Sequence record: PP920555.1 | Source: Escherichia phage SM_W22 | Length of the DNA stretch: 44,245 nt | Strand: one strand, 5' to 3' | Part shown: positions 5,034 through 39,868 of the stretch, piece after piece | Layout: each line of letters starts with the position of its first letter | Position numbering within the stretch: position 1 is the stretch's first letter | Program-made: the position numbers and the translations under genes | The notes under the pieces: model-generated | Told to the model about the DNA's origin: nothing | The model's input: only the letters and a program-made list of their open reading frames with translations | Database searches by the model: none

Positions 5034-5048
5034 TGGCCCCCTTTCGTT
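5023..5048. terminator. Bidirectional intrinsic terminator between convergent genes
   Basis: GGGGGCC-gtgat-GGCCCCC hairpin followed by TTTCGTT; sits between plus spanin stop and minus ORF stop. Confidence 0.7.
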
Positions 5049-5811
5049 AGCGCGGAATACCGCAAATCTCGTTTAGTGTTTTCACGTCCAGCGCCACCGC
5101 CGTGGACTTCGGCTTGTCCGGGTAAGGAATGAACTGTTCAACTTCGGGCCACGCCTTGATCAGCTTCTTATCTGTATTGTGCATATCCAGCACGCCGGTA
5201 ACAGTTAGTTTGAACGCGTCATACTTAGCACGCAACTCACGGCGGGCCTTGTCGTTACGGTCCAGGCGCTTACAGAAATCATGGTCCGCCGGGTAGTCTA
5301 TACGACCGCGTGGCATATATATCGGCAGCGCTTTCCCGTCGTCATCGACTTCGCACACTGACGCTAACAAAATTTCCTCATACCCAGGCACAATATCGCC
5401 GAGATCGGGAGACAGTTTATTCATGTATTTATACTCCCCGTATCCGCGATATACTCGGACTCGGTGTCCGTCTCCGCTCAATGACACGGTACGGACGTTT
5501 CCGCCTGCGTTGATTTCGAAAGTGGCGTCGTAAACGCTGCCTACACCATATGGGCTGTCGGCGTCATGTCTATACGTCGCCTTGTTGGTGTACACACAGA
5601 CGCCGTACATCTGCGACGGGTCACCGCCGATTGCTGCAATGCGCTCACGTAGCTCGGCGAACGAATGAATGCCTTCCGGCATACAGTCCATCGTAATGGC
5701 GTACGCCAGATTTCGAGAGTCCATCATGATTGATTTGGCTTCGGTCGCGATTTCGTGGTCGCGCAGGATGTTAGCCAGAATCTGGTTTTTAATGTCTTTT
5801 GTCAGTCTCAT
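5047..5811 (-). CDS. Hypothetical protein (moron, opposite orientation to structural genes)
   Basis: 254 aa ORF with protein-like composition on minus strand inside plus-strand late module; no motif recognised. Confidence 0.55.
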   Translation of the reverse strand: MRLTKDIKNQILANILRDHEIATEAKSIMMDSRNLAYAITMDCMPEGIHSFAELRERIAAIGGDPSQMYGVCVYTNKATYRHDADSPYGVGSVYDATFEINAGGNVRTVSLSGDGHRVRVYRGYGEYKYMNKLSPDLGDIVPGYEEILLASVCEVDDDGKALPIYMPRGRIDYPADHDFCKRLDRNDKARRELRAKYDAFKLTVTGVLDMHNTDKKLIKAWPEVEQFIPYPDKPKSTAVALDVKTLNEICGIPR

Positions 5812-5854: not shown

Positions 5855-6373
5855 TTAAAGTGCTTCTAGAATCTCGTAAAACTTATTTGCCAGCGCTTGG
5901 CGGCGTTCGAATTTTTCAGTGATAACCAATTCCGGGCGGTTAAATAGCTTTGCGTGGGTGTTCCAATTGAGGATTTCCGTTTCCATTATTTTCTTCCTGT
6001 CCAGCGCTTGGCGGCGTTCGAATTTTTCAGTGATAACCAATTCCGGGCGGTTAAATAGCTTTGCGTGGGTGTTCCAATTGAGGATTTCCGTTTCCATTAT
6101 TTTCTTCCTGTTGTAGTCGGTGTTTTTGATGCTAAATTCCTTGATAGCGTCATTAAGAAAATCAGTCATACACTCAACGTCTGTTCTCTTAACTTCGAAC
6201 GTACGGGACTCGATTGGGCTATTTGTGCGAAGTACGACGACTCCGCCGTGGTAGGTGTCGACTACCATATACTTATAAGTCACCCCATCCCACTCCGGAT
6301 CGAAAGGGCGCCCAAATACGTCGTCGGCTTTCCACACTTTCTGGTACGGTGTTTCTTTAATTAATGTTGGCAT
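5855..6373 (-). CDS. Hypothetical protein with internal 37-aa tandem duplication (moron)
   Basis: Track ORF 5855..6826 trimmed to Met at 6373 (upstream part is antisense of scaffold gene region); repeat KKIMETEILNWNTHAKLFNRPELVITEKFERRQAL occurs twice. Confidence 0.55.
   Translation of the reverse strand: MPTLIKETPYQKVWKADDVFGRPFDPEWDGVTYKYMVVDTYHGGVVVLRTNSPIESRTFEVKRTDVECMTDFLNDAIKEFSIKNTDYNRKKIMETEILNWNTHAKLFNRPELVITEKFERRQALDRKKIMETEILNWNTHAKLFNRPELVITEKFERRQALANKFYEILEAL
5890..6111. repeat. Perfect tandem direct repeat, 2 x 111 bp, in frame within minus-strand ORF
   Basis: Bases 5890-6000 and 6001-6111 read identical base for base; duplication also visible in translated ORF. Confidence 0.9.
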
Positions 6374-11678: not shown

Positions 11679-11992
11679 TTGAGGCGGCGCGACGCTTTTA
11701 TGGCCCGCCGCCACCCTCCGAAGATTTAGCCGCAAGTTTATGGGGTGCGGCCCCCGAAGATGTTTGTCCGCCTGTTGCGCTATGGCCCGACAACGCGAAG
11801 GTAGTCGCAGTCTTCACAGATTGCTCCACGCAATGGCGCACCGGTTTTGGTGGCGCATACGGCATCGACTACGGCGTGCTGGAGTGGTTATTTAAGATGC
11901 ACGGTATCGAAAACGAACAGCGCGCGTTTAAAGATATCAAGCTAATGGAACGAATAGCGCTTGATGAGATGGCGCAGCAGAACCCCGCATAA
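11316..11992 (+). CDS. Tail assembly chaperone frameshift product (GT-like), predicted -1 frameshift at about 11669-11675
   Basis: Slippery heptamer A_AAA_AAC at last codons of G-like ORF; -1 frame is open for about 105 further codons with no start codon of its own. Confidence 0.5.
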
Positions 11993-11993
11993 T

Positions 11994-12375
11994 GAAGCGG
12001 GACAGGCGGGACGTCCCGTTTTGTCCCGCCTCTGTAAAACTGCATATCTACTCACTTCCACTGCATAAACTCAAAACGGGACAAGCGGGACGTCCCGTTT
12101 TGTCACGCCCTGTAAATATGCATACCTATGCAGATTTCGTGCATAAACCAAACGGGACAGAAAGCGGGACAAACAAGGGGCGGGACAAAGCGGGACAGCA
12201 CCCCATCCCCGCCAGTGCTGCCGCGGTTTTTAGCCGATCGGGACAGCGGGACAGCACCCCAGTCTTTCAGACTAGACGGGGGTCTATGGCCCCCCTCGTC
12301 TGAGACTGAATAAGGTTTGTTTTGAAATCGCTGATACAATATCCATCGGCAACTGCATAAAAAGGGGACTGCATA
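11994..12375. repeat. Iteron- and palindrome-rich noncoding region (copy A of duplicated element at about 12111-12313)
   Basis: About ten CGGGACA units, perfect palindrome CGGGACGTCCCG twice, CTGCATAA motifs; last roughly 200 bp near-identical to 39447-39654. Confidence 0.75.
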
Positions 12376-15018
12376 ATGGCAGATCAGGCAGCAGGCATCA
12401 CGCTAAAGGCGGATGTCGCACAAATCAGAACGGCGAATACTGTGCTGGATTCATTCGCACAGAAATCCGAGAACACAGAAAACAAGGTTAAGAAATTAAA
12501 CGACACTCTCGGCAAATCCAAAAAGGTGACGAGTGATGCCGCTGGCGGAATGGAGAAGCTGGCAAACGAATCGCAGCGCGCCGCCGATGGCATGACGAAA
12601 CAGGAGCGACTCGCCAACAGGTTAGGCATGTCGACTAAAAACCTGGGCTTTGCCTCGCGTAACGCCGCATTCCAGTTACAGGATATCGCAGTTACGCTTG
12701 AGATGGGGATGCCGGTACACCGCGTTATGCTTCAGCAGTTACCGCAGCTAACTGGGGCGTTCGGTGGATTGGGTAACACTCTGCGTTATGTTGCTGGCTT
12801 CCTCGGTCCAGTTGGGATCGGCCTTGCTGCGGTAACGGCAACGTTAGGCGTGGGCGTAGCAATTACGTCCCGCGCAGAGAACCAGGTCGCAGCGCTTAAC
12901 AAGACGCTGGCGCTGTCAGGTAACATTTCCGGCCTAACGGCAAACCAGATCCTGGTGCTATCCGAGAACGCCGAGCGCATGGGCGGATCATTCCGCAAGA
13001 CGCGTGACACAATCCAGGCGCTGGCGGCGGCGGGTGTGAAAGCGGGGGCGGACTTCGGCGCGCTGGCGAAGGTTGTGAATGACTTCGCGAAGGCGTCTAA
13101 TCAGCCGATCTCTGACGTGGTTGAATCCATCTCAAAATTGTCGAACGACCCAGTGGGCGGACTGCGTGCGCTGGCGGATAAGTATCATGTCGTTACCGAG
13201 GCGCAGATCCAGCAGGTGCAATCGCTTGTAGATATGGGGCGTGAAACGGACGCGGTTGCTCTGGCTAACAAAACAGCCGCTGCGTCGTTCTCCAGCATGA
13301 CCGATGAGGTAAAGTCCAACATGGGTACGCTTGAGCGGTCGATGAACGTAGTTACATCGGCAGCTAAATCTATGTGGGATGCCATCCTGGATGTGGGCCG
13401 CGCGCAGTCCTCGAATGAGTCCGAGATGAAAGCGCGTGAGTCCTTGCAGCGCATGACCACGGCGTACTATGCCGAGATGAGGGCGGTAAACGCTGCCGGT
13501 GGGGTGATGACCGAAGCGCAGAAAGCGCGTATTAACATGCTTTACAGCGAACTGGTCGCCCAGGAAAAGGTAGTAGCGTCGCTCACCCTTCGCAACCGTG
13601 CCGAGCGAGACAGCGCCAGCGCCGCGGATGAAGCAGCAAAGGCGAACGAGGAGGCAAACCGCGCCGCCCGCGACCGCGCCGCGTTTGAGAAGGAGTACGC
13701 AACCAACGCTAAGAAGCGCGCCGACGAGATCGCCCGCCTCAATTTGCTGAATAAGCGCGGCGTGATCGACGAGAAGGAACTGGCTGAGGCGGTGAAGCAG
13801 GTCAACGAGCGCTACAAAGACCCAGCACCGAAGAAGGCAGCGGCTGTTCGCGTGGATGCCGGCATGAAAATGCTGGAGGTCGCACGGAGCGAACTGGCAC
13901 AGCTTCGGGAATCAGGCAAGCAGATTGAGGCCAACTCCTCAACTCAGACCCGCACACAGCGCGCGCAAGCGGCCCTTAACAAGCTGATTGCCGATAATGA
14001 GCAGTTAATCGCAGCTAGTAAGGAAAGGGCACTCACGGCAGCAGAGAAGCAGCAATTAGTCGAATTTGGACGCGTGAAGGAAGTCCGCGAGCAGATCGTC
14101 GAAGAAGCCAAATTGCTGGACGCGAAAGAGAAGCAGGTCAAGGCGCACGCGCAGATCGATGCCTTCGTTAAGAACCAGAACGCAGAGCTAAAAGCCACCG
14201 CCGCGGGCTATGCACTTTCCACTCGCGAAGCGGCTAACCTTCGCGAAGAATTGCAGCTAATTGACCGCCTTCGTCGTGTTGGCGCTAACGATACCGATAT
14301 TGACCTGGCGGTGTCTAAGCTGCGCGAAGTGCAGGAAGCACAGACCGGGGCTAACGCCTCGCTATGGGATGGCTTCAGCCGCGGGCTTAAGGATAGCGTT
14401 GATGAAATGGGTAACGGATATACGCAGATGACGACACTCACAAAATTCACGTTCGGCGCTATGCAGGACACGATGAACGAGTTTTTCGAGACTGGTAAGC
14501 TGAACGCAAAGGATATGGTTAAGTCCATCCTGAGCGAATTAATCAAGCTGGCTACCTCGCAGGCGTTCAAGTCCATCGTTAGCGCTTTCGGTGGCGACGG
14601 CGGCAAAAACGGATTGTTCGGCGCTATCTTCTCTGGCCTTACTAAGAATGCGGACGGCGGAGCGTACGCAGGCGGCAATCTCGCGGCCTATTCGGGGAAA
14701 GTGGTAAGCCAGCCTACCTTTTTCAGTTATGGCGTCCAGGCGTTCGCTAGGGGCGCAGGATTGATGGGCGAGGCTGGTCCCGAGGCCATCATGCCGCTGA
14801 AGCGCGGGCCGGACGGGAAACTGGGCGTTGCCGCGTCTGGCGCAGGCGGTGGTATGGTCGTGACGACTAACGTTTACACGGGGGCCGGTAAAACGGATAC
14901 CAGTGTCAGCGGGCCGGATCCTCGTACCGCGCAGGCGTTCGGCAAGCAAATCACCGAGGCGGTGAAGGCCGAGATCGTGAAGGCGACGAAACCGGGTGGT
15001 GTACTTTACAAACGATGA
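12376..15018 (+). CDS. Tail tape measure protein
   Basis: 880 aa, long coiled-coil/Ala-rich protein with Gly-rich C-terminal region; position after chaperones. Confidence 0.88.
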   Translation: MADQAAGITLKADVAQIRTANTVLDSFAQKSENTENKVKKLNDTLGKSKKVTSDAAGGMEKLANESQRAADGMTKQERLANRLGMSTKNLGFASRNAAFQLQDIAVTLEMGMPVHRVMLQQLPQLTGAFGGLGNTLRYVAGFLGPVGIGLAAVTATLGVGVAITSRAENQVAALNKTLALSGNISGLTANQILVLSENAERMGGSFRKTRDTIQALAAAGVKAGADFGALAKVVNDFAKASNQPISDVVESISKLSNDPVGGLRALADKYHVVTEAQIQQVQSLVDMGRETDAVALANKTAAASFSSMTDEVKSNMGTLERSMNVVTSAAKSMWDAILDVGRAQSSNESEMKARESLQRMTTAYYAEMRAVNAAGGVMTEAQKARINMLYSELVAQEKVVASLTLRNRAERDSASAADEAAKANEEANRAARDRAAFEKEYATNAKKRADEIARLNLLNKRGVIDEKELAEAVKQVNERYKDPAPKKAAAVRVDAGMKMLEVARSELAQLRESGKQIEANSSTQTRTQRAQAALNKLIADNEQLIAASKERALTAAEKQQLVEFGRVKEVREQIVEEAKLLDAKEKQVKAHAQIDAFVKNQNAELKATAAGYALSTREAANLREELQLIDRLRRVGANDTDIDLAVSKLREVQEAQTGANASLWDGFSRGLKDSVDEMGNGYTQMTTLTKFTFGAMQDTMNEFFETGKLNAKDMVKSILSELIKLATSQAFKSIVSAFGGDGGKNGLFGAIFSGLTKNADGGAYAGGNLAAYSGKVVSQPTFFSYGVQAFARGAGLMGEAGPEAIMPLKRGPDGKLGVAASGAGGGMVVTTNVYTGAGKTDTSVSGPDPRTAQAFGKQITEAVKAEIVKATKPGGVLYKR

Positions 15019-24134: not shown

Positions 24135-24158
24135 GGGGCCATGCGGCCCCTTTTTTAG
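24135..24158. terminator. Bidirectional intrinsic terminator between late and replication modules
   Basis: GGGGCC-atgc-GGCCCC hairpin followed by T6; convergent gene ends on both sides. Confidence 0.8.
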
Positions 24159-24730
24159 TTTGAGTTTTCCCAATCCATTTTACGCCGCACCAGAGGGCTT
24201 TCGTAATATTCCTTGCCCTCCACTTCCACTAAGGGCCAATCATTAACAATCACGTAAGGCTCCGCGATATCTTCAATAACGCCGTGCGCGCTTTGCGGCC
24301 CTAACGACACACCAACCAGGATAACACCGGCAACACGACGGGCAAGATACTCGCGAGCGCAGCGTGCCTCTACCAGTCCGCGACGGATGCCGCTGGTGGC
24401 CTTAACTTCGTAGGTCCATACGGCATCGATCACATGCTCGCGGAAGTCGGGGCCGGACTTAACTTTGCGCTTGCCGACCATGATGATATCGCCGCGGTCA
24501 ATGGTATTGGCGCTAAACAGGCCGGTACGCATTAGCAAGCCTTGAGGAATACAACTGCGCCCTCCTGCCTGCCCTTCAAGATACATGCCTGCAAACATCT
24601 CGCCCAGCACACCGACCAGTCGGCTTTGCTTGCACACGTCAGACTTTAAGCGCCACTGGTCAAACTCGATGCTTGCTATCATTGCCGCCAGGTGGAATTG
24701 TTTACCGGATATTTCATATTCGCCGTACAT
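24155..24730 (-). CDS. Putative PD-(D/E)XK nuclease (possibly endonuclease I-like junction resolvase)
   Basis: 191 aa; GPDF...(about 12 aa)...YEVKATSG pattern resembles PD...(D/E)xK core; last gene of minus operon. Confidence 0.4.
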   Translation of the reverse strand: MYGEYEISGKQFHLAAMIASIEFDQWRLKSDVCKQSRLVGVLGEMFAGMYLEGQAGGRSCIPQGLLMRTGLFSANTIDRGDIIMVGKRKVKSGPDFREHVIDAVWTYEVKATSGIRRGLVEARCAREYLARRVAGVILVGVSLGPQSAHGVIEDIAEPYVIVNDWPLVEVEGKEYYESPLVRRKMDWENSN

Positions 24731-24772
24731 TGTGATCCCCTCATTGATGCGGGCCTAAGCCCGCGATTAGAA

Positions 24773-25327
24773 TTATTTCAGTGCGCCAGTCACCAGTGTT
24801 TTTTCCATGTTGCGGAAGTCTTCCGGCGTCATGAGGATTTTGGACCCATCCTCGCCAGTGAGCACGACCATAGGCTGGACGTCCTGGGCTACGACGCCGA
24901 AATCGGCGGCTTTAACAGTCTTCCCGAACGAGGCTACCACACCCTCGGCAACGCGCATTGCACTGTTATACGCATTAATCTCGCCGTCAAGACGCACGGA
25001 CAGATCTTTGAGGCTTTCAAACTGTTCTGCCGTTGTATCGATCTGAATCTCGTCGTGTACGGTCATGTACGACTCGCCCAGCAAAGCCGCATACGCTACC
25101 AGGTCGACGATATTGTCTTCCTGGTGCTTACGGTGCTGGCGCACCAGCTTCAGGCAGATCAGGAAGGTCCATGCTTCTTGCTCGGTCAGGTCGCGACCGG
25201 TAAGCGCGTTAAACACGGCGGCAATTTGTTTCGCGCTGCGTTCCTCTTTCGCGTTGTCATAGCCGTTTGCTTTCCCGCGCTGTTCCATAGTGGTGGCGGC
25301 GTTTTTGCAGTATTCGTATGCTTTCAT
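24773..25327 (-). CDS. Hypothetical protein
   Basis: 184 aa ORF with protein-like composition; no motif confidently recognised. Confidence 0.5.
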   Translation of the reverse strand: MKAYEYCKNAATTMEQRGKANGYDNAKEERSAKQIAAVFNALTGRDLTEQEAWTFLICLKLVRQHRKHQEDNIVDLVAYAALLGESYMTVHDEIQIDTTAEQFESLKDLSVRLDGEINAYNSAMRVAEGVVASFGKTVKAADFGVVAQDVQPMVVLTGEDGSKILMTPEDFRNMEKTLVTGALK

Positions 25328-25379
25328 GATGTTTTCCTTTTTAGTGGGAGGCGGTATTGCCCCCGACGAGTTAACTATA

Positions 25380-25403
25380 TTGCAACCAACCTATTGGTTG
25401 CAA
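25380..25403. promoter_or_regulatory. Palindromic pair of TTGCAACCAA motifs
   Basis: TTGCAACCAA-ccta-TTGGTTGCAA perfect inverted repeat; third partial copy TTGCAACG about 10 bp downstream. Confidence 0.45.
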
Positions 25404-25723
25404 GTGAATTTTGCAACGTTTATTGCGTAAATTTTCGGAACCAGATCGCCACACGCCCGACGAATTGCCGCGATGTTCTTCTCGCAATCTTCAATGATGA
25501 CCAGTTCCGACACGTCTGCGTAGCAGACCATTTTGAACACGGCGCACGCCTTAAACTCTGGCGGCGGGGTGTCGTCCAGCATGTGGCGCATGAACAATCG
25601 ACCTACGGGGAAGACCTTCAGTTGTTCGGCGGTCGTGTCCCAACATTCGCGCTGCCGGTTTGTCAGATACGCGATCTCGAAGCCTTGCTCTTTGTACATG
25701 CGCAGCAGCGGCAGCATATCCAT
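25391..25723 (-). CDS. HAD-like hydrolase C-terminal portion (gene appears frameshifted relative to upstream ORF 25551..25937)
   Basis: LPLLRMYKEQGFEIAYLTNRQ and MLDDTPP resemble HAD motifs II-IV; an N-terminal VDRDPAVVD motif-I-like segment lies in another frame upstream. Confidence 0.4.
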   Translation of the reverse strand: MDMLPLLRMYKEQGFEIAYLTNRQRECWDTTAEQLKVFPVGRLFMRHMLDDTPPPEFKACAVFKMVCYADVSELVIIEDCEKNIAAIRRACGDLVPKIYAINVAKFTCNQ

Positions 25724-25917
25724 GTTCAGATCTTCGCGGACGTGCGCTTCGCGCAGTAAAGGAGTTGCACACGAAATGGCAACGCTGAGTCATGACAAGC
25801 CAACCGGTGAGGTCAAGGCCCAGGATGTATTCGGGGCGAGACGCGCGCACCACACGATTGCGTCGCGGGTCAATACCGTAGTCTTTTTGCATTTGGTCTA
25901 CTACCGCGGGGTCGCGG

Positions 25918-26403
25918 TCAACGATTAAGATATTCAAGGAGTTCTCCTTCGCTCATTATTTCAATTTGTGCGCTGCCGATGGGCGGCGCTTCGTCAAATA
26001 TTATCAATTGCTGGCATTTGTTATTGCTCGGCCCGACTTCACCGGTGACGGCGTGAATGAATCTAATCCGCCAGTCCAGAAGAATTATCAGGTTTGCAGT
26101 CTTCCGGGCCATCCTCGCCCACTTCGTCGACGTGTCCTGATTCAGCAGCATGACAGTCCGGCGTCCGTGCGCCGCGCACTCTACCCACGGCAGCGGATCG
26201 GAATACGGCGGATTGCACCACTTCCACCCTTTCAACTCGGACCAGTCCACATCAAGCGCGCTATGTTCTGCTGTGAAGTAACGCGGTAGCAGGTGGTTGG
26301 CATCGCTTGCCGCCATATCGTAACGGAATCGGTATTTCCGACGAAGCGGTTTGAATAAAGCTGGCGGCGTGCGCCAGCTATCTTTTTGCTCACTCTCCGT
26401 CAT
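25918..26403 (-). CDS. DNA N6-adenine methyltransferase (phage Dam family)
   Basis: WRTPPALF near N-terminus and NPPYS catalytic motif; track ORF trimmed to Met at 26403 giving a 14-nt overlap with upstream gene. Confidence 0.75.
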   Translation of the reverse strand: MTESEQKDSWRTPPALFKPLRRKYRFRYDMAASDANHLLPRYFTAEHSALDVDWSELKGWKWCNPPYSDPLPWVECAAHGRRTVMLLNQDTSTKWARMARKTANLIILLDWRIRFIHAVTGEVGPSNNKCQQLIIFDEAPPIGSAQIEIMSEGELLEYLNR

Positions 26404-26854
26404 TCTGCGGGTCCAGTGCGTAAAGGGCAATCTTTTCGCCTTTGCCTCGGGTAAGTACGCGCTGGACCCGCGCCATCTCATCCTTGCCAAGAGGTCGGCA
26501 ATCGGAATAGTAGCTGCCGTTCGCACGCCACGCTACCAGCACCAGGTCTTTCCTGTCGATCGAAGACCGGCGACCCTTCGGGCGCACGTATTCCTCGGCC
26601 CGTTTGCAATGCTCGCGCAGGCCGTCGGCGGTGATGCGGTTTAGCGCAACGCTGGTTGTGTATCCGGTGCGCTGCATAATCCCCATCAATTCGAAAAGTA
26701 GTTCGAAGCGCTCCTCTATCTCCTGGCGCACTTTCTTCTCGCCTTCGTATAGCGCCTGGTTGGTGTCCGCCAGCGCGCTGACGCGTTCGACCTGTTCGCG
26801 GGCTTCGAGGCATTGCGCGGCCCAGTAATTTTTCTCTTCTTGTAAAATTTTCAT
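26390..26854 (-). CDS. Hypothetical protein (coiled-coil N-terminus)
   Basis: 154 aa ORF; no motif recognised. Confidence 0.5.
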   Translation of the reverse strand: MKILQEEKNYWAAQCLEAREQVERVSALADTNQALYEGEKKVRQEIEERFELLFELMGIMQRTGYTTSVALNRITADGLREHCKRAEEYVRPKGRRSSIDRKDLVLVAWRANGSYYSDCRPLGKDEMARVQRVLTRGKGEKIALYALDPQNDGE

Positions 26855-26908
26855 CGTGTTGTCTCCAGGTATTAAAAAAGGCGTCCAAACCGGACACCCT
26901 TAAGATAA

Positions 26909-26935
26909 TGCAACCAATATGATTATGCAACCAAT
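26909..26935. promoter_or_regulatory. Two direct copies of TGCAACCAAT
   Basis: Copies at 26909-26918 and 26926-26935 in intergenic gap upstream of minus gene starting at 26854. Confidence 0.4.
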
Positions 26936-27253
26936 TTACGCATAAAAGTTCGGGTCGCGTGCGACGTCTACCAGGTAAAGGTTGCTTATGCGGTTGCCGT
27001 AGTGCCCTGGAGTGCGCTGGCGGCACACAACGGCGAAGCCTGGAGGGATTGTATTGCCCGTCTCAATAATCCACGCCACGCGTGCGCCAGACAGCGTCTT
27101 GCCGTTGTATTCGATACGTGTTCCGCCATCGGCGGTATTGAGGTTGCCAATTTTGCAGCCGGTGGACTTCAGACGAATGACGCCGGTTTTGCTGTCGTAG
27201 GAGAATAACTGGTTAGTCATTGCAACCGAAAAATCGATGGCTTCGAATGTCAT
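26936..27253 (-). CDS. HNH_3-like domain protein (possibly catalytically degenerate)
   Basis: GNRISNLYLV matches the NNRIENLRLV-type C-terminal HNH signature; expected upstream D-H replaced by R-Q. Confidence 0.4.
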   Translation of the reverse strand: MTFEAIDFSVAMTNQLFSYDSKTGVIRLKSTGCKIGNLNTADGGTRIEYNGKTLSGARVAWIIETGNTIPPGFAVVCRQRTPGHYGNRISNLYLVDVARDPNFYA

Positions 27254-27960
27254 TTTAAATTTTCCTCGTTAACCGCTATCGCGAAGCCGCGCGGAGTGAG
27301 CGACCGGATTAATTTTGTGCGGGCTGATTTGCCTCCGAGGCGACTATACTGCTTCGAGTACCCTTTTTCAACGAATACAGGCTTTTTCTCTGGCATACGA
27401 AAGCCGTTGCCGGTCCATAAGCAGGTCCGCTTCGGATATGAATCGCGCGCGTTGATGTATTCCGGGAACAACGGGTGCACGTCATCCTCCGGCAGATAGC
27501 CGCCATACTCCCACGGATCAAACGAGTGGTCTGGCTTACGCCACTGTGTGGAAAGCACACTGCGCGGATTCTCAATCATATACGGCACTTCGAAGAAGTC
27601 ACCCAGGTAAGCTGCGATCTTCGCGGTGCGCACCGCCTTAAGCTGGAAGGCCGGGTCTTTAGCACGCTTGCGCGGGAAAGCTGGCGCGCCGCTCACTGCC
27701 AGATCCGTACACGGGGGGAAAGCATAAATGATATCCGGCGTACCGAAATCGCCATTCATCGCTCGGTCCACGAAGTCCAGATCGATAAACTCATTGCGAT
27801 ACCGGATCCCGCGACCATAAATCCGGTAGTCAAGGTATGACCCGTGATCAGCTTCGGAGTAGTTAAAACAGTAGCACTTATGCCCCATCTCGGCAGCACG
27901 CTCAATCATCAAGCCGCTGCCGTCAAACAGTGACCAGATTGTCATTTTCGCAATAGTCAT
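27250..27960 (-). CDS. DNA (cytosine-5)-methyltransferase-like protein, short form
   Basis: Motif I-like LFDGSG, motif IV-like FPPCT (PC catalytic Cys), motif VI-like ENP, motif IX-like RSLTPRGF; only 236 aa so target recognition region minimal. Confidence 0.5.
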   Translation of the reverse strand: MTIAKMTIWSLFDGSGLMIERAAEMGHKCYCFNYSEADHGSYLDYRIYGRGIRYRNEFIDLDFVDRAMNGDFGTPDIIYAFPPCTDLAVSGAPAFPRKRAKDPAFQLKAVRTAKIAAYLGDFFEVPYMIENPRSVLSTQWRKPDHSFDPWEYGGYLPEDDVHPLFPEYINARDSYPKRTCLWTGNGFRMPEKKPVFVEKGYSKQYSRLGGKSARTKLIRSLTPRGFAIAVNEENLK

Positions 27961-29381: not shown

Positions 29382-29385
29382 ATCT

Positions 29386-29604
29386 TTATCCCGCCTTTTT
29401 CCAGACTTCGGTTTCACTGTTCCAGTTCCTTTTTGTGGCGTCGTAGTTGGTGCTGTGCCCGATGTGTACACCCGTCGCCCGGAAGCTCTTAAATTTTTGC
29501 CAGCACACCGTCAACGGCAGCGGGTGATTCATGCCCGCGATAAACCATACGCGATCGCCTGGTTTGCATTCGCCCAGTGTGGTGAGTCGGTAGCGTTCTT
29601 TCAT
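29386..29604 (-). CDS. Hypothetical small protein
   Basis: 72 aa from ATG with GGAGAC RBS; follows a minus-strand terminator. Confidence 0.4.
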   Translation of the reverse strand: MKERYRLTTLGECKPGDRVWFIAGMNHPLPLTVCWQKFKSFRATGVHIGHSTNYDATKRNWNSETEVWKKAG

Positions 29605-29616
29605 CGTCATGTCTCC

Positions 29617-29641
29617 CAAAAATGGCGGGACAAGCCCGCCG
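29617..29641 (-). terminator. Intrinsic terminator (minus strand)
   Basis: On minus strand GGCGGGC-ttgt-CCCGCC followed by ATTTTT. Confidence 0.5.
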
Positions 29642-29647
29642 TATTAA

Positions 29648-29821
29648 TTATTTTTGCTCTGCGCGGTAGCGGCGCTGCCGTTCGCGCTCTTTTTTATTGC
29701 GGCACGATTTGCACTCCGCCCGATACCCGTCCGGGCTACGCGCAGTCTTGCCGGTGTATTTGTGGAACTGGGATAGCGGTTTAACGCAGCCGCAATTACT
29801 GCAACGTTTTTCTTCGATCAT
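29648..29821 (-). CDS. Zinc-ribbon protein (CxxC...CxxC)
   Basis: 57 aa from Met with GAGGA RBS; CSNCGC...ECKSC motif similar to N-terminal Zn modules of phage nucleases. Confidence 0.45.
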   Translation of the reverse strand: MIEEKRCSNCGCVKPLSQFHKYTGKTARSPDGYRAECKSCRNKKERERQRRYRAEQK

Positions 29822-29861
29822 CTCTAAAATCCTCGATATGGCTAACCGGCACACTATACCG

Positions 29862-30140: not shown

Positions 30141-30328
30141 TTGGTTTGCAACTCCACGTTGCGCAGACAGAGGTCAACCGGTATGTCCGACCGACCGGTT
30201 AGCGCCAGCGCCAGGTTTTCAGGCGTGACAAGTGCCGTTATGGTTTTGCCACGTTCCAGTCTAATGACGATTCGAATCTCGTCTTTGTCCGCCGCGCCCG
30301 CGCGCATTATGCTAATTTCTGCTTTCAT
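30137..30328 (-). CDS. Hypothetical small protein
   Basis: 63 aa from internal Met of track ORF 30137..30400 (upstream part overlaps DNA polymerase end). Confidence 0.35.
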   Translation of the reverse strand: MKAEISIMRAGAADKDEIRIVIRLERGKTITALVTPENLALALTGRSDIPVDLCLRNVELQTK

Positions 30329-32818: not shown

Positions 32819-32833
32819 TTTTCATTGTCCTAT

Positions 32834-36727: not shown

Positions 36728-37057
36728 ATGAATATCAAAGAAGCAATTGAAGTGTTATCTAATGCAATCCGCGGCGAAGCGGGTAAATCCTGGTATTACA
36801 CAAATGCGGTGGATACTCTGTTATTTGAAGTGTCCAGATTATCGCGTGCTGAGAAGGAGCTTACCGCGAAGCTGGAATTGCTCAACGGCACGGCAGCAAG
36901 CAAGCTGCAAAAACACAATGAAGAAATGGAAGAATACAAAAAACAGGTTATCCGTCTACGTGAGGAAGGTAAATCCTGGGCGATGATTGCCGAGTTGACC
37001 GGAATTAATCAGAGCACAGTGCGCTCCTGGGTACGCAATAATAAAACTTCTAAGTAA
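36728..37057 (+). CDS. HTH DNA-binding protein (putative transcriptional regulator)
   Basis: 109 aa; C-terminal helix-turn-helix-like segment SWAMIAELTGINQSTVRSWV; first gene of rightward operon; RBS CAGGAGA. Confidence 0.55.
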   Translation: MNIKEAIEVLSNAIRGEAGKSWYYTNAVDTLLFEVSRLSRAEKELTAKLELLNGTAASKLQKHNEEMEEYKKQVIRLREEGKSWAMIAELTGINQSTVRSWVRNNKTSK

Positions 37058-37067: not shown

Positions 37068-39332
37068 ATGAGCTTAATTAAATTCGCTGTAACAAGACCC
37101 GCTAAAAAAGGCGAAAAAGCCAGGGCGGAAAACTTCCAGATGACGACCGATGAATTTTTCGAATTTATCAAAGATGCGAAAGAGATATCGTCGGTGCATA
37201 TCAACAAGACGGAAGATAAAGCCGAGTATGCGCGCCGCAAGCGTAAGGCCGATGGCATCGTGGCGTATACCAGTGACGGATTGCGTCGTAAGACCAGTGC
37301 GGTGGACCTCTCGATCCTGTTCTTTGATATTGACCGCACCGACACCCGCACCCTGCGCCGCTGCCGTAAGGCGTTCATCGACTCGGGTCTGGAACACGTA
37401 TTTCACACCACCACCGGCGACCGCCACCCGCTGAAGGGCGGCACGCGTTGCGCCCGTTTCCTGGTGCTCACTGACAAGCCTGTACCGGCTGAAGACCTGG
37501 GCCGCGTCCAGTATGCACTATTACACCAACTGGGTCTGTCAGATGTGGACTTCGACGATTGCACGAAAGATACAAACCGCCTGATGTACCTGCCACACCA
37601 GCAGTCCGTTATTAAGTGCCACTATGGCAAGCGCGCCAATGTGCGTCGTCTACTCCGTCGGGCGGACAAGCTGGGGGTGGAAAAAGAGGAAGTACGCCGC
37701 GAGCTTACCCAGGGCGACGACGCAGTGGCAGACGGCATTCTGGACTGGTGCTTCCAGGCCGGATTCGAGGAGTTATCTTCTGGTCGCGGTTATGAAGTGC
37801 CGTGCCCGAACGAACATCTGCACAGCGGCGAAGGGTCGACGGCTATCATGGTCAAGGATGGCGAGATCCGTTTCAAGTGTATGCACACCGGCAACGAGTG
37901 TTGCTCGGAGCTGAACAGACACCAGCACCTGGCGCTACGTCTTATCGGGATCCCGGACCACCTGAACGTCGAGCCACACAACATGTCCCGTAAGCAAATC
38001 GCCGCCATCCTCCCCGGACTGGACGACGAGGAAGTGGAATCGTGCTATGAACATATCGTTGATGCGGTCGGAGACGGCGACGAGTACGGCGGATGTACCG
38101 ACGCTGACCTGGATAACGAACCGGTCGCACTGTTCAGTAAGCACGACCCGATCATAGAAGGCCTGGTCAACTTCAAATCGACCTGGTATATGGCTGGCGA
38201 GTCGAACATCGGTAAATCGTTCTACGTGCTGGGGCAAATGGGTGCGGTTGCCGCGGGGATTCCGTTCGGCGGTGCGAAGGTCGTCCAGTCCCATTGCTTC
38301 TATTTCGACGCGGAAGGTGGCGAAGCCTCCAACCAGCGTAAGGAAGCATTGCAGATCAAATACGAGCACGACCTCGACAAGCTGCACATTATCGATCTGC
38401 AATCACGCGGCTGGGATATCACCAGCAAATCCGGCTTGCGTGAAGTTATCAGCTTCATCAACCGCACCGCTAACGGCGAACCGGTTGGCCTGGTGGCGTT
38501 CGACTCACTCAACCAGACGGTTGCGCTGCGGTCCGCCGATGCCAAACCGTTCGACGAGAACAACGCCAGCGATATGGGCGAAGTGGTCAAGGCGCTGAAG
38601 GCCATCGCGGAAAATACAGGCGGCAGTGCGGGCGTCATCCACCACCCGGCGAAGGGTGCAAACGGCAGCAGATCACCCCGCGGGTCCGGCGCGCTGCATG
38701 GTGCTGTCGATTCTGCGTTCTTCCTGGAGCAACCGGACGACAATCAACCAGGCCAATTGAACCTGTATCACGAAAAGGCACGTAACGGCATCAAGCAAGC
38801 GCCGCGTGGCTTCGTCCTGCTCAAGTGCAAGGTGAAGGTAGATCTCCGCAAGTCCGAGGCGTTCGAATCGCACCAGTCCACCAGCACCGGGCCTGACTTC
38901 GGCGACGTCGTTGCCGGTTGGGACGTCAAGCCGATTGCCTCCACGCCACGCGACGAGACTCTGTACCTCGTACCGGTCGCCCTGGCACCGTTCGCCATCG
39001 AACAGGCGAAGGCCGCAGGAAAAGCCGCGGTTAAGGAAGAGAACACCGCAGGACCGCGCACCGAAAAAGAAAAGGTACTTTACGCGGCCCTGGAAAAACT
39101 GATGGAAGATAACCCGGACCATACTGGTTTCAGTAAATCGGCAATCGTCCGCCAGGCGGGATTGGCAAAAGGTGGAACATCGACGAAGGCAATCGACGAT
39201 ATGGTCGAGCGCGGCGTACTCGGTTTTTATACCGATCCGCACACCGGGGCCATCTATGGGTCGTCTAATATCGTCATAAAAACAAACATACCAACCACAC
39301 TTTCGGCGACCGACGACGACTTAAAAGATTAA
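37068..39332 (+). CDS. DNA primase / replicative helicase (primase-polymerase N-domain plus RecA-like ATPase)
   Basis: 754 aa; N-terminal region with DxD (FFDIDRTD) and Cys/His cluster, central Walker A-like GESNIGKS. Confidence 0.7.
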   Translation: MSLIKFAVTRPAKKGEKARAENFQMTTDEFFEFIKDAKEISSVHINKTEDKAEYARRKRKADGIVAYTSDGLRRKTSAVDLSILFFDIDRTDTRTLRRCRKAFIDSGLEHVFHTTTGDRHPLKGGTRCARFLVLTDKPVPAEDLGRVQYALLHQLGLSDVDFDDCTKDTNRLMYLPHQQSVIKCHYGKRANVRRLLRRADKLGVEKEEVRRELTQGDDAVADGILDWCFQAGFEELSSGRGYEVPCPNEHLHSGEGSTAIMVKDGEIRFKCMHTGNECCSELNRHQHLALRLIGIPDHLNVEPHNMSRKQIAAILPGLDDEEVESCYEHIVDAVGDGDEYGGCTDADLDNEPVALFSKHDPIIEGLVNFKSTWYMAGESNIGKSFYVLGQMGAVAAGIPFGGAKVVQSHCFYFDAEGGEASNQRKEALQIKYEHDLDKLHIIDLQSRGWDITSKSGLREVISFINRTANGEPVGLVAFDSLNQTVALRSADAKPFDENNASDMGEVVKALKAIAENTGGSAGVIHHPAKGANGSRSPRGSGALHGAVDSAFFLEQPDDNQPGQLNLYHEKARNGIKQAPRGFVLLKCKVKVDLRKSEAFESHQSTSTGPDFGDVVAGWDVKPIASTPRDETLYLVPVALAPFAIEQAKAAGKAAVKEENTAGPRTEKEKVLYAALEKLMEDNPDHTGFSKSAIVRQAGLAKGGTSTKAIDDMVERGVLGFYTDPHTGAIYGSSNIVIKTNIPTTLSATDDDLKD

Positions 39333-39345
39333 ATTCTGCGCGCGT

Positions 39346-39442
39346 TGGTTGCCGATATGTGGATCCCCATATCGCTAAAAGACTAAATTTTGCGCGCATT
39401 GGTTGCCATTTTGAGTGTTTTTATCCAGTCGCATTGGTTGCC
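39346..39442. repeat. Three direct copies of GCGC(G/A)TTGGTTGCC-containing repeat flanking a GGATCC-centred palindrome
   Basis: TAAATTcTGCGCGCgTTGGTTGCC and TAAATTtTGCGCGCaTTGGTTGCC 54 bp apart, third GCATTGGTTGCC copy downstream; GATATG-tggatcccc-CATATC hairpin between. Confidence 0.6.
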
Positions 39443-39446
39443 GTGT

Positions 39447-39654
39447 AGTGTAAATATAATGAATAGTTATGCAGTTTTGCTGCATAAAGTAAGCGGGACA
39501 AAAAGCGGGACAAACAAGGGGCGGGACAAAGCGGGACAGCACCCCCGTCCCGCCAGTGCTGCCGCGGTTTTTAGCCGATCGGGACAGCGGGACAGCACCC
39601 CAGTCTTTCAGACTAGACGGGGGTCAATGGCCCCCCTCGTCTGAGACTGAATAA
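39447..39654. repeat. Copy B of duplicated roughly 205 bp iteron element (GCGGGACA repeats)
   Basis: Aligns by eye at roughly 90-95% identity with 12111-12313, including five GCGGGACA units and a GC-rich terminal hairpin. Confidence 0.75.
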
Positions 39655-39804
39655 AATCCGGAGATTGCAAAATACACGGCAACATGATGCGAAGTGCGGT
39701 CGTCGATGAACTAGGCAACCAATGCGGGTTGTATTATGCTGAGTGAAAAATGCAGTTTGCAGCCACAGCAGATAGCGATCAACTTTTTCATACGCGTGAT
39801 TAAT

Positions 39805-39844
39805 ATTGGTTGCATCCGTGCCAGCACCCTGCTATATTGGTTGC
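39805..39844. promoter_or_regulatory. Two direct copies of ATTGGTTGCA upstream of 39869 gene
   Basis: Copies at 39805-39814 and 39835-39844, 30 bp apart; a further GCAACCAAT at 39714-39723. Confidence 0.4.
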
Positions 39845-39868
39845 ACATCAACATGAGGACTGAACAAA

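What the first reader, a model, noticed from the sequence alone, without database searches (positions are those of the whole stretch)
11994..12375. Iteron- and palindrome-rich 380 bp noncoding insertion between tail chaperone and tape measure genes
In lambda-like tail modules the tape measure gene normally follows the G/GT chaperone directly. Here a 380 bp noncoding block is inserted with about ten CGGGACA units, the perfect palindrome CGGGACGTCCCG twice, CTGCATAA motifs and a GC-rich hairpin. Its last roughly 200 bp are repeated almost exactly 27 kb away (39447-39654). This looks like a binding array for a sequence-specific protein: replication origin, packaging (pac) site or partition-like site.
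Basis: seen in the sequence. Interest (0 to 1): 0.75.

Follow-up and report, generated by a model that had tools for sequence, protein, structure and literature searches.

The report
Second replication-origin-like module in tail operon
The 380-bp noncoding block between the tail chaperone and tape measure genes of this Dhillonvirus coliphage is most likely a second copy of the phage's replication-origin module (repeated binding sites plus a conserved hairpin), whose primary copy lies just after the phage's own primase-helicase gene; this resembles phage SPP1's two origins but has never been tested here.

Summary
Locus A (11993-12375) and locus B (39333-39868) share a module of six CGGGACA units plus a 49-nt hairpin. 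The window is a near-complete Dhillonvirus genome, and all 158 GenBank relatives hold the shared module, with at least two matching places in every listed record. The Sodalis phage SO-1 record already annotates both loci as repeat regions A and B, with no function tested.

B lies directly 3' of the replicative helicase-primase gene (HP, 37068-39332). In a motif-first scan of viral contigs, 45 of 120 CGGGACA-array loci encode an HP-type helicase, against 3 of 120 for a permuted control. In all 45 the array lies at the gene's 3' end. HP orthologues at 46-48% identity carry different repeats at that position. One of them, Klebsiella phage VLCpiS11a, also has a second repeat cluster inside its late genes.

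The small ORFs are not conserved. There is no Rfam match and no canonical terminator.

Best reading (confidence about 0.6): B is the primary origin. A is a second origin-type array for the same initiator, comparable to SPP1 oriR or P4 crr. Whether A fires, enhances initiation or blocks forks is unknown.

The near-exact 200-bp repeat is specific to this phage and reflects a recent A-to-B gene conversion. Verdict: new member of a known kind; interest moderate.

The parts
11993..12375 (.). Locus A: the whole noncoding block between the tail chaperone frameshift product (stop 11990-11992) and the tape measure gene (12376-15018)
   Evidence: The shared module is present in all 158 Dhillonvirus records and locus A aligns in 15 of 15 Dhillonvirus A loci. 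Annotated as 'repeat_region, region A' in the SO-1 record NC_013600.
11998..12028 (.). Palindromic four-unit cluster 1: CGGGACA, then CGGGAC|GTCCCG, then TGTCCCG
   Evidence: (family D4). Conserved in 15 Dhillonvirus A loci. Absent from locus B.
12031..12076 (.). AT-rich segment 1 (GC 0.35 against 0.54 for the genome), containing TGTAAAA and two TGCATA motifs
12077..12109 (.). Palindromic four-unit cluster 2; the fourth unit is degenerate (TGTCACG)
   Evidence: (D4, 92% identical to cluster 1).
12110..12152 (.). AT-rich segment 2 (GC 0.35) with the inverted repeat TATGCA-N-TGCATAA; a candidate DNA-unwinding element or second protein site. Shared in outline with locus B.
12153..12197 (+). Direct units 1-4 (CGGGACA at 12153, 12165, 12181 and 12191)
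   Evidence: Nearly invariant across 13 A and 17 B copies. A-B identity of 0.91 equals the identity between orthologous copies.
12198..12238 (.). GC-rich spacer (GC 0.66). It is locus-specific in other genomes, but in this window it has been copied into locus B.
12239..12253 (+). Direct units 5-6 (CGGGACA at 12239 and 12247)
   Evidence: Spacing of 8 or 9 nt varies between genomes, with a compensating 1-nt change nearby.
12260..12308 (.). Long imperfect hairpin, CAGTCTTTCAGACTAGACGGGGG-loop-CCCCCCTCGTCTGAGACTG. Both arms are invariant and the loop varies.
   Evidence: The exact 23-mer occurs only in Dhillonvirus-type contigs (~42-45 kb), twice in most of them. There is no T-tract, so it is not a canonical terminator.
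12332..12340 (+). TGATACAAT, an extended -10-like element 36 nt before the tape measure start codon; a probable promoter for the distal tail genes
   Evidence: Invariant in 15 of 15 A loci. Single exact copy in the window. Promoter function is inferred.
39333..39868 (.). Locus B: the noncoding region directly 3' of the helicase-primase gene, proposed as the primary origin
   Evidence: Annotated as 'region B' in SO-1.
39445..39493 (.). AT-rich segment of locus B (GC 0.29) with the inverted repeat TTATGCAG-N5-CTGCATAA
39494..39594 (+). Locus B units: four direct (39494, 39506, 39522, 39532), one inverted (GTCCCG 39547-39552) and two direct (39580, 39588)
39601..39649 (.). Locus B copy of the hairpin
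37068..39332 (+). Replicative helicase-primase (HP, 754 aa): primase-like N-terminal part, AAA_25 helicase (aa 357-531), C-terminal winged-helix-like domain (about 39063-39278) and an acidic tail. Proposed binder of the units.
   Evidence: DNA binding is inferred, not shown.
36728..37057 (+). Small HTH protein (109 aa; HTH_23 / Sigma70_r4_2) encoded immediately upstream of HP. Alternative candidate binder or operon regulator.
   Evidence: A small HTH gene occupies the same position in four HP orthologue loci.

Best explanation
Loci A and B are two copies of the phage's replication-origin module. Each copy has an AT-rich stretch, an array of CGGGACA units (iterons) spaced mostly 8-16 bp apart, and a conserved 49-nt hairpin. 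Locus B, directly 3' of the helicase-primase gene (HP), is the ancestral, primary origin. HP probably binds the units through its C-terminal winged-helix-like domain, assembles its hexameric AAA_25 helicase there, opens the AT-rich DNA or hairpin, and primes. Locus A is a second array for the same initiator, placed inside the late tail operon. It has 13 hexamer sites against 7 in B, including two palindromic four-unit clusters. Its role would be comparable to SPP1 oriR or P4 crr: a second origin, a cis-acting enhancer of initiation, or a bound-initiator roadblock that stalls forks and helps switch to the concatemer synthesis that a headful packager needs. Shown here: the anatomy, its conservation, the linkage of such arrays to replicase genes, and the change of repeat sequence along with the replicase. 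Inferred: that HP rather than the small HTH protein is the binder, that B fires as an origin, and what A does.
For: (1) Only A and B are iteron-like clusters in the genome, with 7 and 6 copies of one 7-mer per 250 nt; the next best cluster has 4.
(2) Motif-first scan of IMG/VR: among 120 stretches with three close CGGGACA, 45 encode an AAA_25 helicase homologous to HP, and 3 more match by their C-terminal domain. No other window protein is shared by more than 4 stretches.
(3) In all 45, the array lies at the 3' end of that gene; in 44 of 45 it starts between 48 nt before and 108 nt after the stop, and in the other it lies inside the 3' end.
(4) A permuted control heptamer gives 3 of 120 helicase-linked loci and 0 of 120 with mixed orientation, against 59 of 120 for CGGGACA.
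(5) The 12 arrays inspected share the layout of direct units followed by a G/C-stem hairpin. Three metagenomic partner proteins tested are Prim-Pol plus AAA_25 (2) or AAA_25 only (1).
(6) A further 17 loci carry the array inside an organizer-type initiator gene (as SPP1 does; lambda O from my own knowledge). Six more loci carry the same large protein (one member shows a sub-threshold Toprim match); in the four examined the array lies directly 3' of it.
(7) Orthologue series: HP at 68% identity keeps CGGGACA and the hairpin. HP at 48% identity has (A)CTCGCAA repeats plus a long hairpin. HP at 46% identity has other repeats. All sit in a 350-650-nt gap right after the gene.
(8) Rhizobium phage 16-3 p101 is followed by CGTGACA arrays that end in unit-hairpin-inverted unit.
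(9) Klebsiella phage VLCpiS11a (99-98% identical over the L272 origin region; HP 48% identical to the window's) has CTCGCAA clusters at exactly two places: 3' of HP, and in a noncoding gap inside the head-gene region.
(10) Units and hairpin are as similar between A and B (0.90) as between orthologous copies, while the spacer and AT-rich segments are locus-specific.
(11) The HP C-terminus is predicted as H1-b-H2-H3-b-b. The top-ranked PDB fold matches are dominated by winged-helix domains, and the putative recognition-helix residues change along with the repeat type.
(12) Precedents: SPP1 has oriL inside the initiator gene and oriR interrupting the late gene order, with bound gp38 proposed to stall forks (PMC6316719). 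In pRN1 a stem-loop 3' of the prim-pol/helicase/winged-helix replicase gene is required for replication and is the proposed origin, with a small repressor gene upstream (PMC4234260).
Against: No experiment exists for any Dhillonvirus, so origin activity and protein binding are entirely inferred. The HP C-terminal domain shows no significant sequence similarity to the C-terminal domain of the metagenomic CGGGACA-linked replicases or to the organizer N-domains (hhalign probability below 1%), so 'same unit, same binder family' is not established. The fold-search matches are all at E above 0.1, and the model is of medium confidence (mean pLDDT 64.5). The small HTH protein upstream of HP changes along with the repeat type just as HP does, so it is an equally placed candidate binder. 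Guernseyvirinae relatives (Kagunavirus, Jerseyvirus, SaI_NFG_5579) show no strong iteron cluster. Phage 16-3 has only one locus, so a second site is not general. GC skew follows transcription and gives no origin signal. Both modules sit just upstream of likely promoters, which also fits a transcriptional role. About 40% of the 120 CGGGACA-array loci could not be tied to a replication gene, and two lie next to packaging ATPase genes.
Confidence: 0.6

Rival explanations
1. Transcription-unit boundary with operator arrays. The hairpin ends the upstream transcript. The CGGGACA units are operators for a phage regulator, for example the 109-aa HTH protein. That regulator times the promoters just downstream: TGATACAAT before the tape measure gene in A, and the late-operon promoter in B.
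For: The invariant extended -10-like TGATACAAT lies 24 nt after the hairpin and 36 nt before the tape measure ATG. Locus B lies at the boundary between the HP operon and the next plus-strand operon. One GenBank record annotates a terminator under the locus B match (vB_Eco_CS16). A small HTH gene always precedes HP.
Against: The hairpin has no T-tract and is not called as a terminator in either locus. Its arms are sequence-invariant, which a terminator would not need. In unrelated phages the same units flank and form part of the hairpin and are tied to the 3' end of replicase genes, or lie inside initiator genes. The HTH protein has no homologue in the non-Dhillonvirus CGGGACA loci. A regulatory role could also coexist with an origin role.
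Confidence: 0.2
2. The shared module encodes a structured noncoding RNA, for example a protein sponge built on repeated GGA-containing units or an antitermination element.
For: The repeated GGGACA units and a stable fold: RNA minimum free energy -72.4 kcal/mol, z = -2.06. Both copies have the same orientation as the surrounding transcription.
Against: No Rfam family reaches threshold. The z-score is modest. Locus A also carries the units in inverted orientation as perfect DNA palindromes. The 12 metagenomic arrays inspected mix orientations (59 of 120 loci overall). No covariation is available because the stems are invariant.
Confidence: 0.05
3. Packaging initiation (pac) site or other terminase recognition array.
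For: Repeated units could bind the small terminase. Two of ten 'other' loci sampled have CGGGACA arrays next to packaging ATPase genes (L114, L025).
Against: Relatives package by headful, and genomes are conventionally opened at terS. Neither locus is near terS (23-595). Two pac sites 27 kb apart would be unusual. Linkage to replicase genes is far stronger.
Confidence: 0.04
4. The block is coding: the ORFs 11992-12303 and 39390-39644 are real small proteins.
For: Both ORFs are open in the window and share a C-terminal reading frame. A stop-to-stop frame of 85 codons stays open in 12 of 17 locus B copies. Several GenBank records call hypothetical proteins here.
Against: The start codon of the locus A ORF exists in only 4 of 15 genomes, and those ORFs differ in frame and length: 103, 103, 106 and 40 aa. 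Single-base indels occur between units. The locus B frame is broken in the more divergent genomes. There is no Pfam or PHROG match. All three frames are open across this stretch.
Confidence: 0.02

Closest known systems
Bacillus phage SPP1 oriL / oriR (initiator gp38)
   Same: Both phages have two origin-type modules of similar organisation (direct repeats plus an AT-rich element) several kb apart in a roughly 44-kb genome of a virulent pac/headful siphovirus. One module is tied to the initiator gene. The other interrupts the otherwise conserved order of late structural genes (PMC6316719).
   Different: The initiator family differs: SPP1 uses gp38 with a separate loader and a DnaB-type helicase, whereas this phage has a single fused primase-helicase. 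SPP1 oriL lies inside the initiator gene, whereas locus B lies 3' of it. The repeat sequences are unrelated. The SPP1 text read describes no hairpin; the Dhillonvirus module has a conserved one. SPP1 binding is shown biochemically; here nothing has been tested.
Satellite phage P4 ori / crr with the alpha primase-helicase (own knowledge, plus the summary in PMC4234260)
   Same: One multifunctional protein combines primase, helicase and a C-terminal winged-helix origin-binding domain. Its repeats occur at two separate loci, the origin and a distant cis-required region.
   Different: P4 alpha has a Toprim-type primase and, by my own knowledge, an SF3 helicase; HP has an AEP-like N-terminal part and an AAA_25 (RepA/RecA-type) helicase. 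The P4 repeats are TGTTCACC (own knowledge). The two P4 loci are about 4.5 kb apart rather than 27 kb (own knowledge).
pRN1 ORF904-type origin, also proposed for Bordetella BIP-1-like phages
   Same: An archaeo-eukaryotic-type primase, helicase and winged-helix replicase, preceded by a small DNA-binding protein gene. The origin is a long stem-loop immediately 3' of the replicase gene; for pRN1 this was tested by deletion and displacement (PMC4234260).
   Different: pRN1 has an SF3 helicase, no iterons and a single origin. The Dhillonvirus module combines iterons with the stem-loop and is duplicated.
IncQ plasmid RSF1010 oriV (RepC iterons, RepA helicase, RepB' primase and the ssiA/ssiB hairpins; summary in PMC4234260)
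   Same: Iterons, GC-rich and AT-rich segments and hairpins occur together. The helicase is of the RepA type (summary), which by my own knowledge is the AAA_25 family matched by HP.
   Different: RSF1010 uses three separate proteins. It replicates by strand displacement on a plasmid. There is no second distant locus.
SO-1 GenBank annotation 'repeat_region, region A / region B' (NC_013600)
   Same: These are the orthologous loci of a Dhillonvirus, described as direct, inverted and palindromic repeats with mutual similarity.
   Different: This is an annotation only. I found no paper that analyses or tests these regions.

Membership tests
Iteron-type replication origin | Several copies of one short unit at roughly helical-turn spacing | tested here: met
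   Locus A has 13 CGGGAC sites and locus B has 7. Spacings between same-orientation neighbours are 8-16 bp. Enrichment is 20 against 6 expected.
Iteron-type replication origin | Adjacent AT-rich DNA-unwinding element | tested here: inconclusive
   AT-rich stretches of 43-49 nt abut the arrays, with GC 0.35 in A and 0.29 in B against 0.54 for the genome. They are short, and unwinding was not modelled or tested.
Iteron-type replication origin | Cognate initiator encoded next to the repeats, with repeats that change as the initiator diverges | tested here: met
   Locus B is directly 3' of HP. The same linkage holds in 45 of 45 homologue-bearing loci. Different repeats follow the 46-48% identity orthologues and 16-3 p101. 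For locus A the feature is met only by shared sequence, not by adjacency.
Iteron-type replication origin | Initiator binds the repeats, and the fragment supports initiation | not testable with these tools
   Needs EMSA or DAP-seq, marker-frequency analysis or a plasmid replication assay.
SPP1 oriR-type second origin | A second module with the same repeats as the primary origin, located within the late structural gene block | tested here: met
   Locus A lies between the tail chaperone and tape measure genes. It shares the units and hairpin with B. A parallel case exists in VLCpiS11a.
SPP1 oriR-type second origin | Initiator homologous to gp38 (replisome organizer) | not tested
   SPP1 gp38 itself was not compared. 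HP's domain architecture (AAA_25 helicase core; PHROG 'replicative helicase-primase') differs from an organizer protein, and its C-terminus shows no significant similarity to the organizer-type N-domains from the CGGGACA loci. So any likeness to the SPP1 system is functional, not by descent.
P4 alpha-type ori/crr system | Fused primase-helicase with a C-terminal winged-helix origin-binding domain | tested here: inconclusive
   The AAA_25 helicase is certain. The primase part rests on weak PHROG matches. The C-terminus is predicted as winged helix with pLDDT 70-85 in the core, and the top-ranked fold matches are mostly winged-helix domains, but all at E above 0.1.
P4 alpha-type ori/crr system | Toprim primase and SF3 helicase homologous to P4 alpha | tested here: not met
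   Pfam finds AAA_25 only, with no Toprim or SF3 domain. There is no solved-structure relative by sequence.
pRN1-type origin | Long stem-loop directly 3' of a prim-pol/helicase/winged-helix replicase gene, with a small DNA-binding protein gene upstream | tested here: met
   The hairpin at 39601-39649 begins 269 nt after the HP stop. The HTH gene at 36728-37057 lies directly upstream. The same holds in orthologue loci.
pRN1-type origin | SF3 helicase domain; origin without iterons | tested here: not met
   The helicase is AAA_25 and iterons are present.
Intrinsic (Rho-independent) terminator | G+C-rich hairpin immediately followed by a T-run | tested here: not met
   The scan does not call the 12260-12308 or 39601-39649 hairpins. 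The sequences after the stems are TGAATAAGG and TGAATAAAA.
Known RNA families (Rfam 15), tRNA and tmRNA | Covariance-model match at gathering score, or an ARAGORN call | tested here: not met
   No matches in the whole window.
pac site | Terminase recognition and cleavage site, usually in or near terS, marked by read termini | not testable with these tools
   Position argues against it: terS is at 23-595. Relatives package by headful. Read data are not available.
Plasmid-prophage partition site (parS / sopC-like) | A ParB-type protein encoded by the element, and a plasmid-like lifestyle | not tested
   No ParA/ParB appears in the annotated right half of relative Bas84. The module has no plasmid or E. 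coli genome match. A dedicated protein search was not run.

The most novel reading that the evidence does not exclude
CG(G/T)GACA arrays ending in a G/C-stem hairpin would define a widespread, undescribed class of phage replication origin, used by at least three initiator architectures with no detectable similarity in their DNA-binding parts: Prim-Pol/AAA_25 fusions, organizer-type proteins with the array inside the gene, and large Toprim-like proteins. These occur in phages whose contigs range from 33% to 74% GC. In virulent headful siphoviruses (Dhillonvirus, Klebsiella phage VLCpiS11a) a second copy planted inside the late genes would act as a programmed initiator-bound fork barrier or second origin. 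That would drive the switch to concatemer synthesis, meaning the SPP1 oriR logic arose independently in Gram-negative phages.
Probability: 0.25. Interest if true: 0.65.

Novelty: new member of a known kind. Interest (0 to 1): 0.5.

Why it matters
Dhillonviruses are common coliphages used in phage-therapy and defence-system studies, including the BASEL collection, yet I found no paper that analyses or tests their replication origin. Locating the origin and a second cognate array gives concrete targets. Locus B plus HP could serve as a minimal replicon for engineering. Locus A offers a test of whether a second initiator-binding site in the late region controls the switch from early to concatemeric replication, a model so far argued mainly for SPP1. 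The link between CGGGACA-type arrays and self-loading primase-helicases could also be used to predict origins in many uncultured phage contigs. Practically, the two small 'hypothetical proteins' often annotated at these loci should be removed from annotations.

Tried and rejected
- The raw count of CGGGACA-array hits in IMG/VR is not evidence. Only context differs between the two sets.
- GC and AT skew follow gene orientation and show no origin signature.
- I looked for sequence homology between the HP C-terminus and the conserved C-domain of the metagenomic replicases or the organizer N-domains. The results were hhalign probability 0.2-0.45% and HMM scores of 8 bits or less.
- The word-indexed protein search with the C-terminal 146 aa found one fragment. 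The exhaustive search found only 10 representatives, those with length or name data being HP-type proteins or fragments. The domain is therefore confined to this lineage.
- The PDB sequence search of HP gave nothing.
- Cultured relatives carrying HP homologues (SaI_NFG_5579, Kagunavirus, Jerseyvirus, Bas73) have no CGGGAC arrays and no strong iteron cluster.
- The origin region of L273 has no match among cultured phages.
- Caulobacter phage RW and Microcystis phage Mae-JY30 have no CGGGAC or CGTGACA array after the gene.
- Phage 16-3 has no second locus.
- The module has no match in plasmids or in E. coli genomes.
- The Rfam, tRNA, promoter and terminator scans gave nothing decisive.
- Hairpin covariation could not be assessed: 17 of 19 pairs never or almost never vary.
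- Literature searches for Dhillonvirus, HK578 or SO-1 origins, and for the unit sequence, found no description.
- The full text of the SO-1 note could not be read because the tool truncates it.
Full report
WHAT THE WINDOW IS
The 44,245-bp window is an essentially complete genome of a Dhillonvirus, the SO-1 / HK578-like virulent coliphages. Both loci match 158 GenBank phage records at 80-98% identity, almost all Escherichia or Shigella Dhillonviruses. Relatives assemble as circles and are predicted to package by headful (PMC9022532). The gene layout is as follows:
- Plus-strand structural genes, 23 to about 24128.
- Minus-strand replication genes, 24155-36502, including DNA polymerase, exonuclease, Gp2.5-like SSB and a helicase.
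- A plus-strand block from 36728: an HTH protein, the replicative helicase-primase (HP, 37068-39332), small genes and lysis genes.

CHECKING THE OBSERVATION
- The gap between the stop of the frameshifted tail chaperone (11990-11992) and the tape measure ATG (12376) is 383 nt.
- CGGGACA occurs 20 times in the window against 6.0 expected (0 of 100 shuffles reach 20), with 9 in locus A and 6 in locus B.
- On both strands the hexamer CGGGAC gives 13 sites in A and 7 in B.
- The palindrome CGGGACGTCCCG is at 12007 and 12086. Each copy sits in a 36-nt direct repeat.
- The long repeat is 12111-12313 against 39449-39654, 91.7% identical over 206 columns.
- A sliding scan for any repeated 7-mer flags only these two places in the genome.

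ANATOMY OF LOCUS A
- Two palindromic four-unit clusters, 11998-12028 and 12077-12109. Each is followed by an AT-rich stretch (GC 0.35) containing TGTAAA and TGCATA motifs.
- Four direct units, 12153-12197.
- A GC-rich spacer.
- Two more direct units, 12239-12253.
- A 19-pair imperfect hairpin, 12260-12308.
- An invariant TGATACAAT at 12332, 36 nt before the tape measure start codon.

ANATOMY OF LOCUS B
Locus B has three ATTGGTTGC repeats, which belong to a separate, genome-wide intergenic motif. It then has an AT-rich stretch (GC 0.29) with the inverted repeat TTATGCAG-N5-CTGCATAA. After that comes the same 4 + 1 (inverted) + 2 units and the same hairpin.

COMPARATIVE ANALYSIS WITHIN DHILLONVIRUS
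I aligned 13 A modules and 17 B modules from IMG/VR copies of these phages.
- The six units and both hairpin arms are almost invariant. The hairpin loop varies.
- Identity between A and B in units 1-4 (0.91) and in units 5-6 plus hairpin (0.90) equals the identity between orthologous copies (A-A 0.90-0.91; B-B 0.88-0.95).
- The AT-rich segment and the 32-nt spacer are locus-specific: A-B identity is about 0.6, against 0.80-0.90 between orthologous copies.
- The window is the single exception. Its B locus carries the A-type spacer, with A-B spacer identity 0.94 against 0.47-0.66 in 12 other genomes.
- So the near-exact 200-bp repeat that drew attention reflects a recent A-to-B gene conversion in this phage. 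It is not the general state of the genus.
- The exact hairpin 23-mer occurs only in Dhillonvirus-type contigs of about 42-45 kb.

THE BLOCK IS NOT CODING
- The ATG of ORF 11992-12303 exists in 4 of 15 genomes, and those ORFs differ in frame and length.
- Single-base indels occur between units.
- The B frame is open in 12 of 17 closely related genomes but broken in the more divergent ones. All three frames are open there.
- Neither ORF has a Pfam or PHROG match.

NO KNOWN RNA FAMILY OR TERMINATOR
- No Rfam family, tRNA or tmRNA matches.
- The hairpins lack a T-run and are not called as terminators.
- The RNA fold of the module is only modestly better than shuffles, z = -2.06.

THE KEY LEAD: A MOTIF-FIRST SCAN OF VIRAL CONTIGS
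- Three CGGGACA within short gaps hit at least 120 IMG/VR stretches from contigs of 33-74% GC.
The context differs sharply, however.
- Of all window proteins, only HP has homologues in many of these loci: 35 by BLAST and 45 by iterated HMM. No other protein is found in more than 4 loci.
- The control set has 3 of 120 such loci. It has no arrays of mixed orientation, against 59 of 120 for CGGGACA.
- In all 45 loci the array lies at the 3' end of the helicase gene. In 44 of 45 it starts between 48 nt before and 108 nt after the stop; in the other it lies inside the 3' end.
- Three of the partner proteins were tested: two are Prim-Pol plus AAA_25 fusions and one shows AAA_25 only. The 12 arrays inspected share a layout of 3-9 direct units followed by a G/C-stem, AT-loop hairpin, usually flanked by inverted units.
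- The Dhillonvirus module has the same layout.
- A further 17 loci carry the array inside an organizer-type initiator gene, just after its N-terminal domain. SPP1 oriL has this arrangement; lambda O does too, from my own knowledge.
- Six more loci carry the same large protein (one member shows a sub-threshold Toprim match); in the four examined the array lies directly 3' of it.
- About 40% of the 120 loci could not be assigned. Two of ten sampled lie next to packaging ATPase genes.

THE REPEATS CHANGE WITH THE REPLICASE
- HP orthologues form a graded series.
- The 68%-identity orthologue (L274) keeps CGGGACA and the hairpin.
- The 48%-identity orthologues (L272, L275) have (A)CTCGCAA/TTGCGAGT repeats plus a long hairpin.
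- The 46%-identity orthologue (L273) has other repeats.
- In every case the repeats sit in a 350-650-nt noncoding gap right after the gene, and a small HTH gene lies right before it.
- Rhizobium phage 16-3 p101, a homologue of the Prim-Pol/AAA_25 query annotated DNA polymerase/primase, is followed by 357 nt of CGTGACA units, one base different. These end in unit, hairpin, inverted unit.
- Other Guernseyvirinae relatives show no strong iteron cluster, so the feature is not universal in the family.

A SECOND SITE INSIDE LATE GENES ALSO RECURS
- Klebsiella phage VLCpiS11a matches the L272 origin region at 91% identity. Its CTCGCAA units cluster at exactly two places.
- One is directly 3' of HP (5036-5280).
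- The other is a 283-nt noncoding gap (35652-35934) between a spanin gene and the head morphogenesis gene, with a similar internal layout.
- Phage 16-3, which by my own knowledge is temperate and packages from cos ends, has a single locus.

THE CANDIDATE BINDER
- HP has a robust AAA_25 (RepA-type) helicase core at aa 357-531 and weak PHROG matches to primases at its N-terminus.
- Its roughly 100-aa C-terminal domain was modelled as H1-b-H2-H3-b-b, with pLDDT 70-85 in the core.
- The top-ranked Foldseek matches to this model are dominated by winged-helix domains (ArsR/MarR, histone H1, LexA, Rio2), but all are at E above 0.1.
- The residues at the start of the putative recognition helix differ between the CGGGACA-type, CTCGCAA-type and other orthologues.
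- This domain is confined to the lineage: only 10 representatives among 1.8 billion proteins.
- It shows no significant similarity to the C-domain of the metagenomic replicases or to the organizer N-domains.
- How three dissimilar domains would read the same heptamer is unexplained.
- The small HTH protein upstream remains an alternative binder.

COMPARISON WITH KNOWN SYSTEMS
- SPP1 has oriL inside the initiator gene and oriR in a segment that interrupts the late gene order. [quoted passage not shown]
- For pRN1, a stem-loop 3' of the prim-pol/helicase/winged-helix replicase gene is required for replication and is the proposed origin, with a small repressor gene upstream. The same layout was proposed for BIP-1-like phages (PMC4234260).
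- That paper also summarises P4 alpha, in which a winged helix binds the origin repeats, and RSF1010, which combines iterons with ssi hairpins.
- The Dhillonvirus module combines iterons with the 3' stem-loop and is duplicated. The resemblance to SPP1 and P4 is functional; none of the tested homology criteria is met.

PRIOR KNOWLEDGE AND NOVELTY
The SO-1 GenBank record already marks both loci as 'repeat_region, region A / region B', with direct, inverted and palindromic repeats and mutual similarity. I found no paper that analyses or tests them. The module has no match in plasmids or in E. coli genomes.

VERDICT
The feature is real and strongly conserved. It is best explained as a second origin-type initiator-binding module (confidence about 0.6), with locus B as the primary origin. 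A transcriptional role, as a unit boundary with operators, is the main rival (0.2) and could coexist with the origin role. This is a new member of a known kind. Interest is moderate at 0.5. It would rise if the CG(G/T)GACA-plus-hairpin origin class and the second-site logic are confirmed experimentally.

Noticed in passing
window 6403, 6416, 22514, 25393, 26910, 26927, 29878, 36526, 39398, 39433, 39715, 39805, 39836, 40543: The 9-mer ATTGGTTGC has 14 exact copies (26 with up to 1 mismatch, against 12.3 expected; 0 of 100 shuffles reach this). By my reading of the ORF list, most lie in or near gaps between genes, and they often come in pairs. In locus B two copies overlap a -35-like TTGCAT that lies 17 nt before TATATT. 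This is probably a phage promoter or operator motif. It is distinct from the CGGGACA units and absent from locus A.
   Followed up: partly
window 12332-12340: An invariant extended -10-like TGATACAAT lies 36 nt upstream of the tape measure start codon in 15 of 15 Dhillonvirus genomes. This suggests the distal tail genes have their own promoter.
   Followed up: partly
window 5890-6111: A perfect 111-nt tandem duplication, 5890-6000 and 6001-6111 at 100% identity, reported by the repeat finder (family D3). It was not examined.
   Followed up: no
window 39494-39654 versus 12153-12313: In this phage only, locus B carries the locus A version of the spacer between units 4 and 5. A-B spacer identity is 0.94 against 0.47-0.66 in 12 other genomes, which is evidence of a recent gene conversion between loci 27 kb apart.
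   Followed up: yes
L276 (Klebsiella phage VLCpiS11a, NC_069154) 5036-5280 and 35684-35908: A different repeat, CTCGCAA, clusters at exactly two places: 3' of the helicase-primase gene, and in a noncoding gap between a spanin gene and the head morphogenesis gene.
   Followed up: yes
L277 (Rhizobium phage 16-3, NC_011103) 2557-2913, which is record 56250-56606: A 357-nt unannotated gap after gene p101 is filled with CGTGACA units in both orientations and ends in unit, hairpin, inverted unit. This is a likely origin of this classical phage, and the genome holds only one such locus.
   Followed up: partly
L093 1346-2407, L050, L097 and 14 further loci: Organizer-type initiator genes carry 4-11 CGGGACA units inside the coding sequence, just after the N-terminal domain. 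The units are translated as G-Q / R-D / G-T-rich linkers; one of the two proteins tested has a DUF7833 C-terminal domain.
   Followed up: partly
window 39309-39329 (C-terminus of the helicase-primase): The C-terminal tail is acidic in all 11 aligned orthologues, ending ...D-x-D-L-x-D with D and L invariant. From my own knowledge it is reminiscent of the acidic C-terminal tails of T7 gp4 and gp2.5, which contact the DNA polymerase.
   Followed up: no
MG065648.1 'Campylobacter phage A144' (hit H4): A record labelled as a Campylobacter jejuni phage matches locus A at 97% identity over 550 nt. This is probably a mislabelled or contaminating Dhillonvirus sequence.
   Followed up: no
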